Shown here: positions 5,375 through 9,297 of the stretch, piece by piece | Position numbering within the stretch: position 1 is the first letter of the stretch | Layout of the letters: each line of letters begins with the position of its first letter | Assembly: GCA_020632135.1 (NCBI GenBank) | Contig: JACKGC010000001.1 | Span: 116,241 to 180,240 of the forward strand | From: Candidatus Nomurabacteria bacterium | GTDB lineage: Bacteria > Patescibacteriota > Minisyncoccia > Phycocordibacterales > UBA918 | DNA: 64,000 nucleotides | Direction of reading: 5' to 3' | Program-made: the position numbers and the translations under genes | The notes under the pieces: generated by a model | What the model was told of the DNA's origin: nothing | What the model saw: only the letters and a program-made list of their open reading frames with translations | Databases searched by the model: none

Positions 5375-6253
5375 TTACTGAGACTCTGCGAGAGCTTCAA
5401 TGAAAGGCTGAATGTCACCACTAAGAACCGCGTCCACGTTGCGCACTTCGGTGTCGGTGCGATGATCTTTGACGAGCTGGTATGGATGCAGCACATACGA
5501 GCGGATCTGACTTCCCCACTCGATCTTGAGACTCTTCTCCACCGAGAGCCCCTGAAGCTCACGGCGGCGCTGCTCTTCTTCAAAGGCAAAGATCTTTCCA
5601 GCGAGCAGCGCAAGTCCTTTCTCACGATTCTGCTGCTGCGAGCGTTCGGAAGAAATGTTGACTGAGATGTTGGTCGGCTTATGCACGATGCGCACAGCGG
5701 TCTCACGCTTGTTCACATTTTGCCCACCTGCGCCGCCAGAGCGCGCAAATGATATTTCCAAGTCTTCATCCTTGAGTTCGACTGCACTCGTATCTTCAAG
5801 CTGTGGTGACACCTCAACCAGCACGAAGGAAGTCTGACGCTTACCATTGCTATTGAAGGGTGAAATGCGCACGAGGCGGTGCACCCCTGATTCGTGCTGC
5901 AAAGTACCATATGCGTCCTTGCCCTGGATCACGAAGGTGATGTTGCGATAGCCGTTGTGATCATTGGCGTTACTATCCATGATAACCACGGCCCAATTGC
6001 GGCGTTCAGCATAACGCTGATACATTTCAACCAACATTCGTGCGAAGTCTTCCGCATCATCACCACCCGCACCTGCCACAATGGTAAAGACGGCATCGTT
6101 TCGGTCATACTTTCCTTTTCCGTCCGCGGCGTCTTTGAGTTCCTGCAATTCTTTGATCATCGCTTGTGCGACTGCTGGATCATTCCAAAACGTCGGCTCA
6201 AGCATGGCCGCTTCGATCTCAGCGATTCTGGCTTCAGTTTCTTGTTTATGCAT
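5375..6253 (-). CDS. prfB: Peptide chain release factor 2 (short form, no visible frameshift site)
   Basis: SPF tripeptide (VRISPFNS), GGQ motif ([11 protein letters not shown]) and IRSYVLHPY. The start is taken at the ATG at 6253 ([14 protein letters not shown]...). The longer ORF to 6397 overlaps the upstream gene. Confidence 0.85.
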
Positions 6254-6740
6254 GTGGGTGAAATTGATGTCCGAGCGGAACCGGTTCAGGCGAAATAGCC
6301 AAAAGCCACTGCTTGCACGTACCGAGTTTGCGGCACACCCACCGTTCAACAAACACTGCGCGGTCATAGGTCTGATCTGGACCATTCCACGGATCATGAA
6401 TAGTTAGCGAGGTGCTGTCGGCTGCGACCACCACCCCGTAGTGATCCTCTTCTTCGTCTGGTTCAATGAAGCGCACGATCGGTGGTATCTTGAGCTGCAG
6501 TAGATACTGTAGCTCCTCAAACGCTGAACCATCATTCACATAGCAATGGTACCCAAGCGCGACTGCTAACTCATACATATCCTGCTTACGTGTGCCGTCT
6601 TCGTTCGTGGCACCAAGCTCCTCTGCCAGTGCTTCTTCAGACGCACGAGTGCCATAGTACGCTAGCACCATCTGCAGTGAGGTTGGTCCACAGGTGTATT
6701 CTTTATCTTGCCAGAAGAATGGTACGTCTAACTTTGACAT
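6246..6740 (-). CDS. Stand-alone peptidase C39-like (papain-fold) domain protein
   Basis: 164 aa from the ATG at 6740. Catalytic-Cys motif [16 protein letters not shown] and a His region [10 protein letters not shown]. Its stop overlaps the prfB start (ATGCATAA). Confidence 0.6.
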
Positions 6741-6770
6741 ATGGGAGAGTATAACAAGAAAAGTGGATAA

Positions 6771-6801
6771 GTGCGGCCGGCCCCTAAGGGGCCGGCCGCA
6801 C
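6771..6801 (-). terminator. Rho-independent terminator after tRNA-Thr(GGU)
   Basis: Minus-sense GTGCGGCCGGCCCC-TTA-GGGGCCGGCCGCAC is followed by TTATCCACTTTTCTT. Confidence 0.7.
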
Positions 6802-6813
6802 ACCACCACGTTG

Positions 6814-7083
6814 AGCCAATGCTCGGGATTGAACCGAGGACCTCATCCTTCGCTTACACCCTTATTTTTTAATAATCGGCTATTAAGGGGCTAGACTGTA
6901 TCTTGTTCCTAGCAAGGAACTCCCTTGGCAGTCGTTCGGGCCTCGCGCTAGCGATGCCACGGTCTTGACCAGTCCGTTGGCTATTGACCGTTATTCAGGA
7001 TTCATCTGGTGCATTACTACACCAGCGGGCAGGGGTCTGTGCGACCCACCATGGATGCGCTCTACCGACTGAGCTACATTGGC
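6814..7083 (-). tRNA. tRNA-Thr(GGU) interrupted by a group I intron
   Basis: The 5' exon is GCCAATGTAGCTCAGTCGGTAGAGCGCATCCATGGT (7083->7048). The 3' exon is AAGGATGAGGTCCTCGGTTCAATCCCGAGCATTGGCT (6850->6814). The joined exons give a canonical 73-nt cloverleaf with loop AT-GGT-AA. Confidence 0.85.
6851..7047 (-). other. Group I intron (about 197 nt, no ORF) in the anticodon loop after U36
   Basis: The 5' exon ends in U and the intron ends in G. ACGGUCAAUAGCC, AACGACUGCC and CAAGAUACAGUCUAGCC resemble the conserved P/Q, R and S (AAGAUAUAGUC) core elements of group I introns. Splice positions are inferred to within a few nt. Confidence 0.7.
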
Positions 7084-7683
7084 ATATGAAGTTGTACGCA
7101 ATTCTTCGATTGCGCGGTAGATACTATCACGAATTTTTGTATTTGAAAAATAAATTGTAAGTACCCCGTATTCACTTTTGTGCCTATAGGTACCCTTTGC
7201 AACCGACTCGGAAACGACAACTTTTTGAAACTTTTCTGGTGAGACGCCCAGCCTCTTAGACCAATAGCTTCGAGCTAGGTCGGGACTAGTGTCAGTAAAA
7301 ATTTGCAACCCGAACCGTAGTCGAGTTTCATCAATTTTAAATATCGTTTTGAGGAAGTCTAGGAACACTCGAAGCAAATCAGGATCTGTATTCCCTAGGC
7401 GGATTGCCGTTTTGGACACTTTGTTACCTTCTCCCCACCACAAACCCAAGCCCAACCCATACAACAACCATTCCGACTCATTTCTTGGTTTTATGAAACG
7501 ATATGGGTCTCCACTAGGATTAGCTATCACATACTGTGCATCAGACAAACTACGTTTAGGTATAGCGTGTTTGCGCAACCAATAGTTTACCTTGTTTTCC
7601 GAACAACCCACCCGCACTGCAATTTGCTTTGCTGACTGTTTTTGTTCCACATAGACTTTCACAAGAAACTTTTTCTTCAGCAC
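6991..7683 (-). CDS. HTH + LAGLIDADG-like homing-endonuclease-like protein (free-standing; ORF runs into the tRNA-Thr gene)
   Basis: GTG start at 7683. The N-terminal HTH is SAKQIAVRVGCSENKVNYWLRKH. One LAGLIDADG-type motif is LLYGLGLGLWWGEGNK followed by LGNTDPDLLRVFLDFL. It is a paralog of 8617..9297. Homology ends near 7084, and the last ~30 codons are tRNA exon/intron sequence. Confidence 0.6.
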   Translation of the reverse strand: MLKKKFLVKVYVEQKQSAKQIAVRVGCSENKVNYWLRKHAIPKRSLSDAQYVIANPSGDPYRFIKPRNESEWLLYGLGLGLWWGEGNKVSKTAIRLGNTDPDLLRVFLDFLKTIFKIDETRLRFGLQIFTDTSPDLARSYWSKRLGVSPEKFQKVVVSESVAKGTYRHKSEYGVLTIYFSNTKIRDSIYRAIEELRTTSYANVAQSVERIHGGSHRPLPAGVVMHQMNPE

Positions 7684-7752
7684 AATTTAGTATATCATGT
7701 CCAAATTTGTAACATGCTCAACCAACAGCTATGAGATGCGGCAGCTGACTTG

Positions 7753-7825
7753 AGCCGTCTCCGAGGATTGAACTCGGGACCTTAGCGTTACGAATGCTAC
7801 GCTCTACCAACTGAGCTAAGACGGC
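7753..7825 (-). tRNA. tRNA-Thr(CGU)
   Basis: GCCGTCTTAGCTCAGTTGGTAGAGCGTAGCATTCGTAACGCTAAGGTCCCGAGTTCAATCCTCGGAGACGGCT. The anticodon loop is TTCGTAA. Confidence 0.9.
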
Positions 7826-7925
7826 TGATCGGCAGTATTCTAAGCGAAATTGTCGCTTTCATCAATTCGGTAAAGAAAGCATTGCAAAAATAAAGCAAAC
7901 CCGCTATACTCTTGCCACCTTTACT

Positions 7926-7999
7926 GCGCTGGTAGCTCAACTGGTTAGAGCACCCGCCTGTCACGCGGGAGGTTGCGGGTTCGAGTCCCGTCTGGCGCG
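7926..7999 (+). tRNA. tRNA-Asp(GUC)
   Basis: GCGCTGGTAGCTCAACTGGTTAGAGCACCCGCCTGTCACGCGGGAGGTTGCGGGTTCGAGTCCCGTCTGGCGCG. The anticodon loop is CTGTCAC. Confidence 0.9.
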
Positions 8000-8004
8000 C
8001 AGAA

Positions 8005-8043
8005 CAACAAAAAGGGCTGACTTCATGTCAGTCCTTTTTGTTG
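8005..8043 (+). terminator. Hairpin terminator after tRNA-Asp
   Basis: caacaaaaagggctgac-ttca-tgtcagtcctttttgttg, with the T-run in the descending arm. Confidence 0.6.
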
Positions 8044-8066
8044 ATCAAGCGACAGAGCAAAGTGCC

Positions 8067-8189
8067 TGCGCACTTTGCGTACGGACTCGAAAGCCGGAAC
8101 GATGTGAGGAATGTGTGACGAACGAGTGAGGCGGGGTCGCGAAAAATTTTCAGAGAAAATTTATTTGTGACCGAGTCCCGTCTGGCGCA
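8067..8189 (+). repeat. tRNA-end hairpin module, copy Asp (cargo-less mini-element)
   Basis: The anti-arm TGCGC..ACGGACTCGAA (8067-8090) is complementary to CGAGTCCCGT..GCGCA. The core is AGCCGGAACGATGTGAGGAATGTGTGACGAACGAGTGAGGCGGGGTCGCGAAAAATTTTCAGAGAAAATTT. It ends TGTGAC|CGAGTCCCGTCTGGCGC (8172-8188), identical to 7982-7998. Confidence 0.75.
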
Positions 8190-8230: not shown

Positions 8231-8246
8231 ATAAGGTGTCGACAGG

Positions 8247-8468
8247 AGGAATCGAACCTTACAGGTTCAGTACAGGTTGTCGCTGATTTTTTCGCCAGCT
8301 CAAAATCAGCTGGCAACCTTTTCGATCCCTCACAGACTGTCCCCCAGACAATCTGTGAGGAATCGAACCTTACAGGTTCAGTACAGGTTGTCGCTGATTT
8401 TTTCGCCAGCTCAAAATCAGCTGGCAACCTTTTCGATCCCTCACAGACTGTCCCCCGGACAATCTTCC
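8247..8468 (-). repeat. Two tandem 111-bp units of a variant tRNA-end hairpin module
   Basis: Units 8247-8357 and 8358-8468 are nearly identical. Each (minus-sense) reads TCTGTGAGGGATCGAAAAGG ... CTGTAAGG|TTCGATTCCTCACAGA. The array ends in an orphan tRNA-like 3' end, TCGATTCCTCCTGTCGACACC (8257->8237). Confidence 0.8.
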
Positions 8469-8506
8469 ATCGACAGCCAAGAACCTGCTAACGCGGTCTT
8501 TCTTTG

Positions 8507-8578
8507 TGCCGACGGGTAGAGTCGAACTACCGTCTAGGGTTTATGAGTCCCTCGTTCTAACCGTTGAACTACGCCGGC
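8507..8578 (-). tRNA. tRNA-Met(CAU), elongator-type (could also be Ile2)
   Basis: GCCGGCGTAGTTCAACGGTTAGAACGAGGGACTCATAAACCCTAGACGGTAGTTCGACTCTACCCGTCGGCA. The 1:72 pair is G:C and 11:24 is U:A. Confidence 0.8.
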
Positions 8579-8616: not shown

Positions 8617-9297
8617 CTAATTTCCACCCAGTTTACACGCTTCTATCAAACCCTGAATCTTGTACTTTAAATCAGTACTCTTACACACACGTAGAGACAA
8701 AACGCCGTAGTAAGAATCGTGATTCTCATACCGTTTTTTAGGTCTTCCCTTCAACATAATAAACTTGAACCTACCTGATGGTATATTTAGTTCTTTTGAC
8801 CAAAACAAAATAATATCCCGCTCCCGCTTCGCATGCGTTTCAGACACATACACATACGGAGTAAACTGTTCTTCAGACACATGCAAACAACGTTCAAACC
8901 ATAACTTACCAAGCTTTATCAGCTGCGGATCTGAGTTAACCAACGCAGCCATGCCGCTTCTAGATTTCACTCCCTCACCCCAATACAACCCTATTCCTAA
9001 AAGACGTAGATCACGCTCAGACAATTTTCCGATCTCAACAACACCTTTTTCTTGATAATCCCTAATCGCCGCCAGTCGCTTCTCCCTGTTCTTGTTTGCA
9101 CCAATCTGTCTTCCGACATTACCAGCATCGATCTGCTTCTGCTGTAACTTTTCCTTCTGTTTATCAGTCAATGAAATACCCTGACACCAGGCACTGACCG
9201 AACTTTTTGACACACCAAGAACAGCTGCAATATCTTTAATACTCTGACCACGGCGACGTAACTCAATCGCGCGCTTCTTCTGTGCTGGTTTAGACAT
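8617..9297 (-). CDS. HTH + LAGLIDADG-like homing-endonuclease-like protein (free-standing)
   Basis: 226 aa. The HTH is SIKDIAAVLGVSKSSVSAWCQG. The motif LRLLGIGLYWGEGVKS is followed by LVNSDPQLIKLGKLWFERCL. It is a paralog of 6991..7683 and ends 38 nt upstream of tRNA-Met. Confidence 0.6.
   Translation of the reverse strand: MSKPAQKKRAIELRRRGQSIKDIAAVLGVSKSSVSAWCQGISLTDKQKEKLQQKQIDAGNVGRQIGANKNREKRLAAIRDYQEKGVVEIGKLSERDLRLLGIGLYWGEGVKSRSGMAALVNSDPQLIKLGKLWFERCLHVSEEQFTPYVYVSETHAKRERDIILFWSKELNIPSGRFKFIMLKGRPKKRYENHDSYYGVLSLRVCKSTDLKYKIQGLIEACKLGGN

What the first reader, a model, noticed from the sequence alone, without database searches (positions are those of the whole stretch)
6991..7683. 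Free-standing HTH-LAGLIDADG-like gene fused head-to-tail onto the intron-containing tRNA
The ORF encodes an N-terminal HTH and a single LAGLIDADG-type motif (LLYGLGLGLWWGEGNK). Similarity to its paralog (8617..9297) ends at about codon 200, which coincides with nucleotide +1 of tRNA-Thr (..TCA TAT | GCC AAT GTA GCT CAG..). The gene has no stop codon of its own. It reads through the 5' exon and terminates at a TAA inside the intron. This looks like a precise insertion of a nuclease cassette at the tRNA boundary. It recalls collaborative homing, in which a free-standing endonuclease sits next to an ORF-less group I intron.
Basis: partly seen in the sequence, partly recalled or inferred. Interest (0 to 1): 0.55.

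Follow-up and report, generated by a model that had tools for sequence, protein, structure and literature searches.

The report
Endonuclease-like genes glued to tRNA genes
The reading frame that runs into the intron-containing threonine tRNA is a real gene from a large, unnamed family of Patescibacteria (candidate phyla radiation, CPR) bacteria whose members each sit directly against the start of one particular tRNA gene, which suggests an undescribed class of tRNA-gene-targeting endonucleases; the fusion itself is a harmless by-product.

Summary
ORF 6991..7683(-) encodes 230 aa. Its codon 201 is nucleotide +1 of a split tRNA-Thr(GGU) (7083..6814). It has no stop of its own and ends at a TAA inside a 197-nt group I intron.

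This is not a one-off. In all 78 related loci with enough downstream DNA, the homologue lies -128 to +66 nt from a tRNA start: 77 tRNA-Thr(GGU) and one tRNA-Gly. Sixty of these tRNAs carry the intron and 15 do not; in three the DNA ends too early to tell. About half of the genes end inside the tRNA, often at its U8-A9-G10 (TAG).

The C-terminal domain defines a superfamily of about 3,800 clusters with no Pfam model. Ten of 11 sampled subfamilies abut other tRNAs (Met, Gly, Ile, Thr-UGU, Gln). The only link to LAGLIDADG is a borderline profile match to I-DmoI motif 2 (E=0.005, top PDB hit). Pfam finds no such domain, and Foldseek gives no significant match.

Best reading: these are free-standing, homing-type endonuclease genes resident at tRNA 5' boundaries and now inherited with the tRNA. 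The intron is a separate element. Nuclease activity and mobility are inferred, not shown.

The parts
6991..7683 (-). Whole ORF, 230 codons plus TAA, GTG start
   Evidence: 629 homologues
7522..7683 (-). N-terminal helix-turn-helix domain (about residues 1-54)
   Evidence: HTH_23 and PHROG matches to the DNA-binding modules of HNH endonucleases; four helices in the model
7087..7500 (-). Conserved C-terminal domain (residues 62-199). Predicted topology is helix-strand-strand-helix-strand-[helix-strand]-strand-helix. No Pfam model covers it.
   Evidence: AlphaFold model with pLDDT 90.4, pTM 0.85; 3,834 representative clusters; I-DmoI is the top PDB match at E=0.005
7420..7458 (-). LAGLIDADG-type motif GLGLGLWWGEGNK (residues 76-88). 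E85 and K88 align with E117 and K120 of I-DmoI.
6991..7083 (-). Read-through tail: codons 201-230 plus the stop, i.e. the translated tRNA 5' exon and the first 57 nt of the intron. Absent from homologues that are in another frame or have their own stop.
7048..7083 (-). tRNA-Thr(GGU) 5' exon (tRNA nt 1-36)
6851..7047 (-). Group I intron, 197 nt, between tRNA nt 36 and 37; contains no ORF of its own
   Evidence: comparative structure with helices P1-P9 including the P3 pseudoknot; no Rfam hit
6814..6850 (-). tRNA-Thr(GGU) 3' exon, including the discriminator base; no encoded CCA
6773..6799 (-). G+C-rich hairpin just 3' of the tRNA; a possible terminator of the unit
   Evidence: read directly from the sequence; missed by the scanner's T-run rule
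7752..7825 (-). tRNA-Thr(CGU), 68 nt upstream of the ORF on the same strand. A promoter-like site lies at 7865..7837. Probably part of the same transcription unit.
   Evidence: same arrangement in L001 and L005
8617..9297 (-). Paralogue (226 aa) with its own stop, 38 nt upstream of tRNA-Met(CAU)
   Evidence: An orthologue 55% identical in the C-terminal domain (P0244, locus L085) ends at the TAG of tRNA-Met nt 8-10 and has the same upstream NTP-transferase gene.
8506..8578 (-). tRNA-Met(CAU), the partner of the paralogue

Best explanation
SHOWN:
- The ORF is a genuine, conserved gene of a large unnamed Patescibacteria superfamily. Its architecture is an N-terminal HTH plus a domain of about 135 aa built around the helix GLGLxWGEGxK.
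- Each subfamily lies directly against the 5' end of one particular tRNA gene on the same strand. This gene pairs with tRNA-Thr(GGU) and its window paralogue with tRNA-Met(CAU). Others pair with Gly(GCC), Ile(UAU), Thr(UGU), Gln(UUG) and a class-II tRNA.
- Spacing is so tight that about half of the genes end inside the tRNA.
- The window gene lost its own stop and enters the tRNA in frame 1. It reads through the 36-nt exon and 57 nt of the intron, up to the invariant UAA of the intron's J3/4 junction. The 30-residue tail is dictated by RNA sequence and is absent from relatives in other frames, so it is a by-product.
- The group I intron is a second, separable element in the same tRNA.

INFERRED:
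- The domain is a very divergent LAGLIDADG-type nuclease domain. The glutamate and lysine that align with E117 and K120 of I-DmoI are conserved.
- The family consists of free-standing homing-type endonuclease genes. They use a tRNA gene as a highly conserved target or landing site and sit in its transcription unit, like phage T4 SegB in its tRNA cluster.
- In this lineage the gene is now a long-term resident inherited with the tRNA.
- Where the stop lies inside the tRNA, RNase P cleavage at +1 would leave a stop-less mRNA. Expression is therefore probably low and confined to the unprocessed precursor.
For: Junction:
- Sequence, ORF and tRNA calls.
- Of 78 related loci with at least 120 nt of downstream DNA, 75 have a same-strand tRNA found by ARAGORN. 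The other 3 show the 5' exon before the contig ends.
- Sixty of the 75 have the intron and 15 do not.
- Stop position: 35 at or before tRNA +1, 23 at tRNA nt 8-10 (TAG), and 17 at other positions inside the tRNA or intron.
- The linkage persists while the other neighbours change. At least six different upstream and five different downstream neighbours are seen.

Superfamily:
- 3,834 clusters at E<=1e-3.
- Ten of 11 sampled representatives have a same-strand tRNA start between 10 nt inside and 120 nt beyond the gene's end.
- Many database C-termini are translated tRNA 5' ends.
- Relatives in giant IMG/VR contigs sit inside tRNA arrays.

Nuclease link:
- E, G and K of GEGxK and the N of GN(T/S)D are at least 90% conserved across 104 diverse members.
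- A whole-PDB search with a diverse-family profile returns I-DmoI as the nine best hits (E=0.005-0.08), aligned on LAGLIDADG motif 2 and the following hairpin and helix. hhalign gives 67-83% probability for the same alignment.
- The N-terminal HTH matches the DNA-binding modules of phage HNH endonucleases.

Precedent:
- SegB is a free-standing endonuclease in a tRNA cluster that recognises a tRNA T-arm sequence (PMC2330249).
- Intronless homing by free-standing endonucleases is reviewed in PMC3984707.
Against: - No Pfam, NCBIfam or PHROG nuclease family matches the C-terminal domain.
- Foldseek against the PDB with two confident models puts OmpA-like and IspF folds on top (TM<=0.4) and no LAGLIDADG enzyme in the first 50. 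The viral library gives only non-significant LAGLIDADG and intein-host hits.
- The I-DmoI match covers only about 37 residues. I-CreI, I-MsoI, I-SceI and I-AniI are not matched.
- No empty target site in a close relative was found, and the capped collection scans prevented a direct search for one.
- In five related loci the gene is syntenic and the DNA is about as diverged as prfB-ftsE (about 73-75% nt). This fits vertical descent rather than recent invasion.
- A gene fixed at its site should decay unless it also serves the host, yet this family is well conserved.
- The family is absent from GenBank phages.
Confidence: 0.5

Rival explanations
1. Domesticated host factor. The family is no longer, or never was, a mobile nuclease. 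It is a sequence-specific DNA- or RNA-binding protein co-expressed with its cognate tRNA, for example a regulator of that tRNA's transcription unit or a factor acting on that tRNA. It is inherited vertically and kept by host-level selection, as WhiA is a domesticated LAGLIDADG+HTH protein (WhiA comparison from my own knowledge).
For: - Synteny with prfB and ftsE, and similar nucleotide divergence, in related loci.
- The paralogue and its tRNA-Met-linked orthologue share the same upstream NTP-transferase gene.
- Strong conservation: 39 invariant columns in 32 sequences.
- Each subfamily has its own cognate tRNA.
- The gene is present whether or not the intron is.
- No nuclease family is assigned.
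Against: - The glutamate and lysine aligned with the catalytic motif of I-DmoI stay at least 90% conserved across the superfamily. Domesticated LAGLIDADG proteins usually lose them (my own knowledge).
- Homing also preserves synteny, so synteny does not discriminate between the two readings.
- The protein evolves faster (63-67% aa identity) than its housekeeping neighbours (84-92%).
- Half of the genes lose their stop codon to the tRNA, which is odd for a protein the cell needs in quantity.
- Relatives occur in the tRNA arrays of giant viral contigs.
Confidence: 0.3
2. Collaborative homing. In this clade the enzyme cleaves intronless tRNA-Thr(GGU) at the intron insertion site. The anticodon stem-loop is a DNA palindrome that would suit a homodimer. 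Repair then copies both the gene and the ORF-less intron 36 bp away, and the intron protects the resident allele.
For: - The gene sits 36 bp from the insertion site of an ORF-less, structurally intact group I intron in 60 of 75 loci.
- A single-motif protein implies a homodimer and a palindromic target (inference).
- Collaborative homing is documented (PMC3984707). [quoted passage not shown]
Against: - Fourteen loci and a whole sister subfamily keep an intact gene next to an intronless tRNA-Thr(GGU). Those alleles would be self-targets.
- One genome has the intron-containing tRNA without the gene.
- Other subfamilies partner intronless tRNAs.
- The target site is unknown.
Confidence: 0.12
3. 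Splicing helper (maturase). The protein binds the group I intron RNA of the downstream tRNA and assists its folding, as some LAGLIDADG proteins do.
For: It is probably co-transcribed with an intron-containing tRNA. LAGLIDADG maturases exist (my own knowledge).
Against: The gene is equally conserved next to intronless tRNAs. The intron family has a complete, strongly covarying core typical of self-splicing introns. An HTH domain argues for DNA binding.
Confidence: 0.05
4. Artefact. The frame is not a gene, or only the tail matters and the fused C-terminal extension is a functional part of the protein.
For: The ORF listing is purely mechanical. The tail is 'conserved' in several database proteins.
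Against: There are 629 homologues at 45-99% identity with 39 invariant positions. Tail conservation follows the tRNA and intron sequence. The tail vanishes in homologues that use another frame or their own stop.
Confidence: 0.02

Closest known systems
Phage T4 SegB (free-standing GIY-YIG homing endonuclease in the T4 tRNA gene cluster; PMC2330249)
   Same: A free-standing gene embedded among tRNA genes. SegB's recognition site contains a conserved tRNA sequence, and homing carries the neighbouring tRNA genes with it. It has a nuclease module plus a separate DNA-binding module.
   Different: SegB is GIY-YIG and phage-borne, a single case, and is not glued to a tRNA 5' end. Here the domain is LAGLIDADG-like, the host is cellular (Patescibacteria), there are thousands of members in tRNA-specific subfamilies, and the genes abut or overlap tRNA +1. 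No activity has been shown here.
Collaborative (trans) homing: F-CphI next to the ORF-less psbA intron of cyanophage S-PM2, and mobE with I-TevIII (PMC3984707, PMC2790892)
   Same: [quoted passage not shown]
   Different: [quoted passage not shown] Here the gene occurs just as well without the intron, and the intron occurs without the gene.
I-DmoI and other LAGLIDADG homing endonucleases
   Same: The motif helix ends in an acidic residue followed by G-x-K (GLYVAEGDK versus GLYWGEGxK). It is followed by a short hairpin and a helix, and I-DmoI is the best PDB sequence match. The overall order of helices and strands is compatible.
   Different: No Pfam LAGLIDADG hit, and no significant Foldseek hit to any LAGLIDADG structure. 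There is an extra helix-strand insertion between strands 3 and 4, an added N-terminal HTH, and a single motif per chain (a few members have two domains).
I-Ssp6803I, encoded in the tRNA-fMet group I intron of Synechocystis (Bonocora and Shub 2001, cited in PMC3984707; details from my own knowledge)
   Same: A bacterial homing endonuclease whose target is a tRNA gene that carries a group I intron in the anticodon loop.
   Different: It is encoded inside the intron, has a PD-(D/E)XK fold and targets tRNA-fMet only.
WhiA (my own knowledge)
   Same: It combines LAGLIDADG-derived domains with an HTH and is a stably inherited bacterial gene.
   Different: WhiA has two degenerate LAGLIDADG domains and a C-terminal HTH, has lost its catalytic residues, and is not linked to tRNA genes.
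tRNA-targeting eukaryotic retrotransposons (Ty3, Dictyostelium TRE elements; my own knowledge)
   Same: Position-specific residence immediately upstream of tRNA genes.
   Different: These are retroelements that use the Pol III machinery as a landmark. They are unrelated in protein and mechanism.

Membership tests
LAGLIDADG homing endonucleases | Motif helix ending in a conserved acidic residue (..G-[DE]-G) | tested here: met
   GLGLGLWWGEGNK is present. E85 is invariant in 32 close homologues and at least 90% conserved in 104 diverse members.
LAGLIDADG homing endonucleases | Match to curated family profiles (Pfam LAGLIDADG_1/2/3 and similar) | tested here: not met
   No hit at E<=10 for either window protein. 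No LAGLIDADG family appears among the 25 families listed for the 104 diverse members. NCBIfam and PHROGs match only the HTH.
LAGLIDADG homing endonucleases | Sequence-profile similarity to a solved member | tested here: inconclusive
   A profile of 47 diverse C-terminal domains searched against the whole PDB gives I-DmoI as the nine best hits, E=0.005-0.08, over about 37 residues at motif 2. hhalign gives 67-83% probability. The narrow profile found nothing. No match to I-CreI, I-MsoI, I-SceI or I-AniI.
LAGLIDADG homing endonucleases | The alpha-beta-beta-alpha-beta-beta-alpha fold | tested here: inconclusive
LAGLIDADG homing endonucleases | Site-specific DNA cleavage | not testable with these tools
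   Needs the purified protein.
Free-standing homing endonuclease genes (intronless homing) | The gene lies outside any intron or intein, next to a conserved target gene | tested here: met
   The ORF lies upstream of tRNA +1 and is not inside the intron.
Free-standing homing endonuclease genes (intronless homing) | Presence/absence polymorphism among related genomes, and gene-tree/species-tree conflict | tested here: inconclusive
   One genome has the intron-containing tRNA-Thr(GGU) without the gene. The five closest loci are all syntenic and equally diverged.
Free-standing homing endonuclease genes (intronless homing) | Cleaves the gene-less allele close to its own insertion point | not testable with these tools
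   Needs an experiment.
Collaborative homing pair (free-standing endonuclease plus ORF-less intron) | [quoted passage not shown] | tested here: met
   The intron at 7047..6851 has no ORF of its own. The gene ends 36 bp from its insertion site.
Collaborative homing pair (free-standing endonuclease plus ORF-less intron) | The association of gene and intron is obligatory or specific | tested here: not met
   Fourteen loci have the gene next to an intronless tRNA-Thr(GGU). One locus has the intron without the gene. Other subfamilies partner intronless tRNAs.
Group I introns (for the neighbouring element) | P1 with a U.G pair at the 5' splice site, a terminal G, and a P3-P9 core with the P3/P7 pseudoknot supported by covariation | tested here: met
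   In 44 sequences, 95.9% of cells are paired (34-45% in the slid controls), and 32 of 51 pairs have changes on both sides. The U.G pair is invariant, the terminal G is present in all, and P3 is 99% paired with C-G to U-A swaps.
Group I introns (for the neighbouring element) | Match to Rfam Intron_gpI | tested here: not met
   No hit even at E<=10 on the 311-nt stretch, and none at gathering score in 20 loci.

The most novel reading that the evidence does not exclude
The superfamily is a previously unrecognised, phylum-wide class of tRNA-gene-specific endonucleases. Each clade would be tuned to one tRNA gene and would live at its 5' boundary and inside its transcription unit. The elements would be maintained by homing on DNA taken up by these naturally competent, DNA-scavenging bacteria. 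Expression would be throttled because RNase P cuts off the stop codon. If so, it would be a cellular, LAGLIDADG-derived counterpart of phage SegB on a much larger scale, and a ready-made panel of nucleases with distinct long recognition sites.
Probability: 0.35. Interest if true: 0.85.

Novelty: new variant of a known kind. Interest (0 to 1): 0.68.

Why it matters
1. It exposes a large protein superfamily (about 3,800 clusters at 50% identity) with no Pfam model and only 'hypothetical protein' labels. Its defining trait is residence against the start of a specific tRNA gene. I could not find this described in the searched literature.

2. If the proteins are active, they form a natural series of sequence-specific nucleases directed at different conserved tRNA genes. 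That is of interest for the biology of mobile elements in CPR bacteria and for enzyme engineering.

3. Same-strand overlap of a protein gene with a tRNA sets translation against RNase P processing. This makes a testable case of expression control by tRNA maturation.

4. There are practical annotation consequences:
- tRNA-Thr(GGU) is missed by default tRNA finders and by Rfam in these genomes because of the intron. This distorts tRNA-complement and completeness estimates.
- Many deposited protein sequences of this family carry translated tRNA at their C-termini.

Tried and rejected
- Rfam on the window (E<=1), on the 311-nt stretch (E<=10) and on 20 loci at gathering score found no group I hit. 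I used comparative structure instead.
- Default ARAGORN misses the split tRNA. With its intron option it finds the tRNA but often misplaces the intron borders and mislabels the anticodon (Arg or Pro). The borders come from my own exon parse and from the alignment.
- Pfam, NCBIfam and PHROGs match only the HTH.
- phmmer and the narrow family profile against the PDB found nothing.
- Foldseek against the PDB, with both the full-length and the domain model, returned OmpA-like, MotB and IspF folds at TM<=0.4. I rejected these as partial beta-alpha-beta resemblances.
- I considered a PD-(D/E)XK reading of E85/K88. I rejected it because the spacing and the placement on secondary structure do not fit (my own knowledge).
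- A Pfam scan of 104 distant relatives, used as an intermediate-sequence search, gave no link to any C-terminal domain family.
- GenBank phages gave no match. IMG/VR gave only four distant relatives.
- A search for further paralogues in the window found none beyond the two.
Full report
**1. What is in the window**

On the minus strand, ORF 7683..6991 (GTG start, 230 codons) is followed without any spacer by a split tRNA.
- Codon 200 is TAT. Codon 201 (GCC) is tRNA nucleotides 1-3, so tRNA +1 is at 7083.
- The tRNA is tRNA-Thr(GGU): 5' exon 7083..7048 (ending ..CCATGGT), a 197-nt intervening sequence 7047..6851, and 3' exon 6850..6814 (AAGGATG..CATTGGC-T).
- Default ARAGORN and Rfam miss it. 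ARAGORN with its intron option reports tRNA-Thr(ggt) at 6813..7083.
- The ORF has no stop before the tRNA. It reads ANVAQSVERIHG from the exon and stops at TAA 6993..6991.
- In the alignment of 44 homologous introns, that TAA is the invariant GAAUAA next to P4.
- The paralogue 9297..8617 is co-linear with the protein up to residue 199. It ends with its own stop 38 nt before tRNA-Met(CAU) 8578..8506.

**2. The intervening sequence is a group I intron**

Forty-four distinct homologous introns (170-230 nt) always lie between tRNA nt 36 and 37, and they align well.
- RNAalifold recovers P1, with GGU pairing to GCC and an invariant U.G at the splice site. It also recovers a covarying P1 extension and P2, P4, P5, P6, P7, P8 and P9.
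- I added the P3 pseudoknot by hand. With it, 95.9% of cells are paired, against 34-45% when partners are slid by 1-3 columns.
- Thirty-two of 51 pairs show changes on both sides, and 0 of 500 shuffles reach any observed measure.
- All introns end in G.
- Rfam's group I model does not see this family.
- The literature mentions CPR tRNAs with group I introns only in passing (PMC8172020).

**3. The gene is real and its junction with the tRNA is family-wide**

- A homologue search gave 629 proteins, all unnamed or 'hypothetical', from Patescibacteria MAGs.
- Thirty-two of them (51-68% identical to the window protein) share 39 invariant columns.
- Their C-termini were the first surprise. Many end ..YANVAQSVERIHGGSQ, which is translated tRNA. 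Many others end ..KPS..KPM or ..LPT.
- The second group corresponds to xxG CCN NNN TAG: the gene enters the tRNA in another frame and stops at the tRNA's U8-A9-G10.

I fetched 83 loci and examined the junction in each.
- Of 78 loci with at least 120 nt of downstream DNA, 75 have a same-strand tRNA at the gene's end. The other three break off inside the intron but show the 5' exon.
- All are tRNA-Thr(GGU) by exon parse, except the most distant locus (L003, 32-38% identity), which abuts tRNA-Gly(GCC).
- The end of the stop codon lies from -128 to +66 nt relative to tRNA +1: 35 loci at or before +1, 23 exactly at +10, and 17 elsewhere inside the tRNA or intron. The window is at +93.
- Sixty of the 75 tRNAs carry the intron and 15 do not.
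- The other neighbours differ from locus to locus: Thr(CGU) in either orientation, Asp, Thr(UGU), Leu, Tyr, Trp, or prfB. The gene-tRNA pair stays together throughout.

**4. The superfamily and its tRNA partners**

- A profile of the C-terminal domain searched against 1.84 billion representative proteins finds 3,834 clusters at E<=1e-3 and 1,738 at E<=1e-10.
- A Pfam scan of 104 diverse members finds only N-terminal HTH families (HTH_23 in 52 members) and nothing for the C-terminal domain.
- Representative C-termini again contain translated tRNA, for example AEVAQW*, NSSVG*, AGIV* and HVAQSVEHRHGKSGVTGSIPVVGS.

I looked up the contexts of 11 representatives from different subfamilies.

| Representative | tRNA partner and spacing |
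|---|---|
| P0244 (55% identical to the window paralogue in the C-terminal domain) | tRNA-Met(CAU); stop at tRNA nt 8-10; same upstream NTP-transferase gene as in the window |
| P0152 | intronless Thr(GGU), 20 nt downstream |
| P0163, P0196 and L003 | Gly(GCC): overlap of 10 nt (P0163, L003); gap of 2 nt (P0196) |
| P0239 | Ile(UAU), gap of 2 nt |
| P0194 | Thr(UGU), gap of 6 nt |
| P0270 | a class-II tRNA with an intron of about 209 nt, gap of 10 nt |
| P0167 (441 aa, two domains, G+C-rich organism) | Gln(UUG), 118 nt downstream |
| P0200 | no downstream tRNA, but two tRNAs immediately upstream |

Ten of 11 is far above the few per cent expected for a random gene; that background figure is my estimate from tRNA and gene numbers in genomes of this size. 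Four distant relatives in giant IMG/VR contigs also sit in tRNA arrays.

**5. Is it a LAGLIDADG protein?**

Negative evidence:
- Pfam, NCBIfam and PHROGs.
- phmmer and the narrow profile against the PDB.
- Foldseek against the PDB with a full-length model (pLDDT 86) and a domain model (pLDDT 90, pTM 0.85). The best hits are OmpA-like and IspF folds with TM<=0.4, and no LAGLIDADG structure appears in the top 50.

Positive evidence:
- The predicted order of elements is helix-strand-strand-helix-strand-[helix-strand]-strand-helix. That is the LAGLIDADG order with one insertion.
- A profile of 47 diverse domains searched against all PDB sequences returns I-DmoI as the nine best hits (E=0.005-0.08). 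The next hit is unrelated, at E=0.33.
- That alignment puts GLYwGeGxK on GLYVAEGDK (motif 2), followed by the hairpin and helix 2.
- hhalign gives 67% probability against I-DmoI and 83% against its C-terminal half.
- The viral structure library gives only non-significant hits. These include LAGLIDADG enzymes and intein-bearing polymerases and terminases (TM 0.36-0.45).
- The aligned E and K are at least 90% conserved across the superfamily. From memory, they correspond to I-DmoI E117 and K120.

My reading is that this is a very divergent LAGLIDADG-derived domain and probably still catalytic. This is not established.

**6. Mobile or resident?**

- Loci L001, L002, L005, L007 and L010 share the order gene, tRNA-Thr(GGU) with intron, variable spacer, prfB, ftsE with the window.
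- Nucleotide identity is about 72-75% both in the gene-tRNA segment and in prfB-ftsE.
- At protein level the family gene is 63-67% identical, against 84% for prfB and 91-92% for ftsE.

In this lineage the gene is thus an old resident under weaker but real constraint, not a recent arrival.

- All three combinations exist: gene with intron, gene alone, and intron alone (L090). The two elements are therefore separable.

**7. Mechanism proposed**

Shown:
- the anatomy described above;
- the tRNA-specific subfamilies;
- the three kinds of gene ending;
- the dispensability of the tail.

Inferred:
- The proteins are homing-type endonucleases, or their recent descendants, that recognise their cognate tRNA gene and reside at its 5' boundary. 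T4 SegB is a precedent: a free-standing enzyme in a tRNA cluster with a tRNA-derived recognition sequence (PMC2330249). Intronless homing is an established pathway (PMC3984707).
- A promoter-like site upstream of tRNA-Thr(CGU) (7865..7837) and a G+C-rich hairpin after tRNA-Thr(GGU) (6773..6799) suggest one transcript: tRNA, ORF, tRNA.
- RNase P cleavage at +1 would then remove the stop codon in about half of the family, so translation would be limited to unprocessed precursors.
- In the window, ribosomes reaching the TAA would also unwind P1-P2 of the intron.

**8. Verdict**

- The collaborative-homing interpretation is only partly supported.
- The finding extends well beyond the window: a large unnamed superfamily of endonuclease-like genes is attached to the 5' ends of specific tRNA genes.
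- Its activity and mobility remain to be tested.

Noticed in passing
window 8246-8465: Two tandem 109-nt copies (99% identical) lie directly 3' of tRNA-Met(CAU). On the minus strand each carries a tRNA T-arm-like GGTTCGATTCC and 21-nt inverted arms. Neither Rfam nor ARAGORN finds anything there. This could be a tRNA-derived repeat or a disrupted tRNA.
   Followed up: partly
window 7982-7998 and 8172-8188: The last 17 nt of tRNA-Asp(GTC) recur exactly 190 nt downstream, with a terminator-like hairpin (8002-8046) in between. This resembles the att-type duplication left by an insertion at a tRNA 3' end.
   Followed up: partly
window 6246-6809 (-): The 187-aa ORF between tRNA-Thr(GGU) and prfB has no counterpart in the otherwise syntenic loci L001, L002, L005, L007 and L010. 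The spacer between the tRNA and prfB is variable.
   Followed up: partly
L090:1-1700 (GCA_016182095.1): Several family genes and tRNAs are packed into 2.6 kb. A divergently oriented family gene runs off the locus at 1-291. An intron-containing tRNA-Thr(GGU) at 545-815 has no same-strand family gene upstream. Another family gene ends 6 nt before tRNA-Thr(UGU).
   Followed up: partly
L094:1389-1683: A class-II tRNA with an intervening sequence of about 209 nt has a core (..GTAGAGACTAGATACC..) that recalls, from memory, the tRNA-Leu/Azoarcus type of group I intron. It also has a family gene 10 nt upstream. ARAGORN's anticodon call (Ser tga) is doubtful.
   Followed up: no
L096, L098, L099 (IMG/VR contigs of 129-497 kb): Distant relatives of the family lie inside tRNA arrays of giant 'viral' contigs. 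In L096 and L098 the gene's 3' end overlaps a tRNA on the opposite strand.
   Followed up: partly
public protein records P0003-P0032, P0169, P0181 and others: Deposited protein sequences of this family include translated tRNA, and sometimes intron, at their C-termini. The corresponding tRNA-Thr(GGU) genes are likely to be missing from the annotations.
   Followed up: partly
window 7684-7751 (-): The ORF's GTG start is preceded by TGATATACT, an extended -10-like element, only a few nucleotides upstream, and there is no Shine-Dalgarno sequence. The mRNA may be leaderless or made by processing of the upstream tRNA-Thr(CGU).
   Followed up: no
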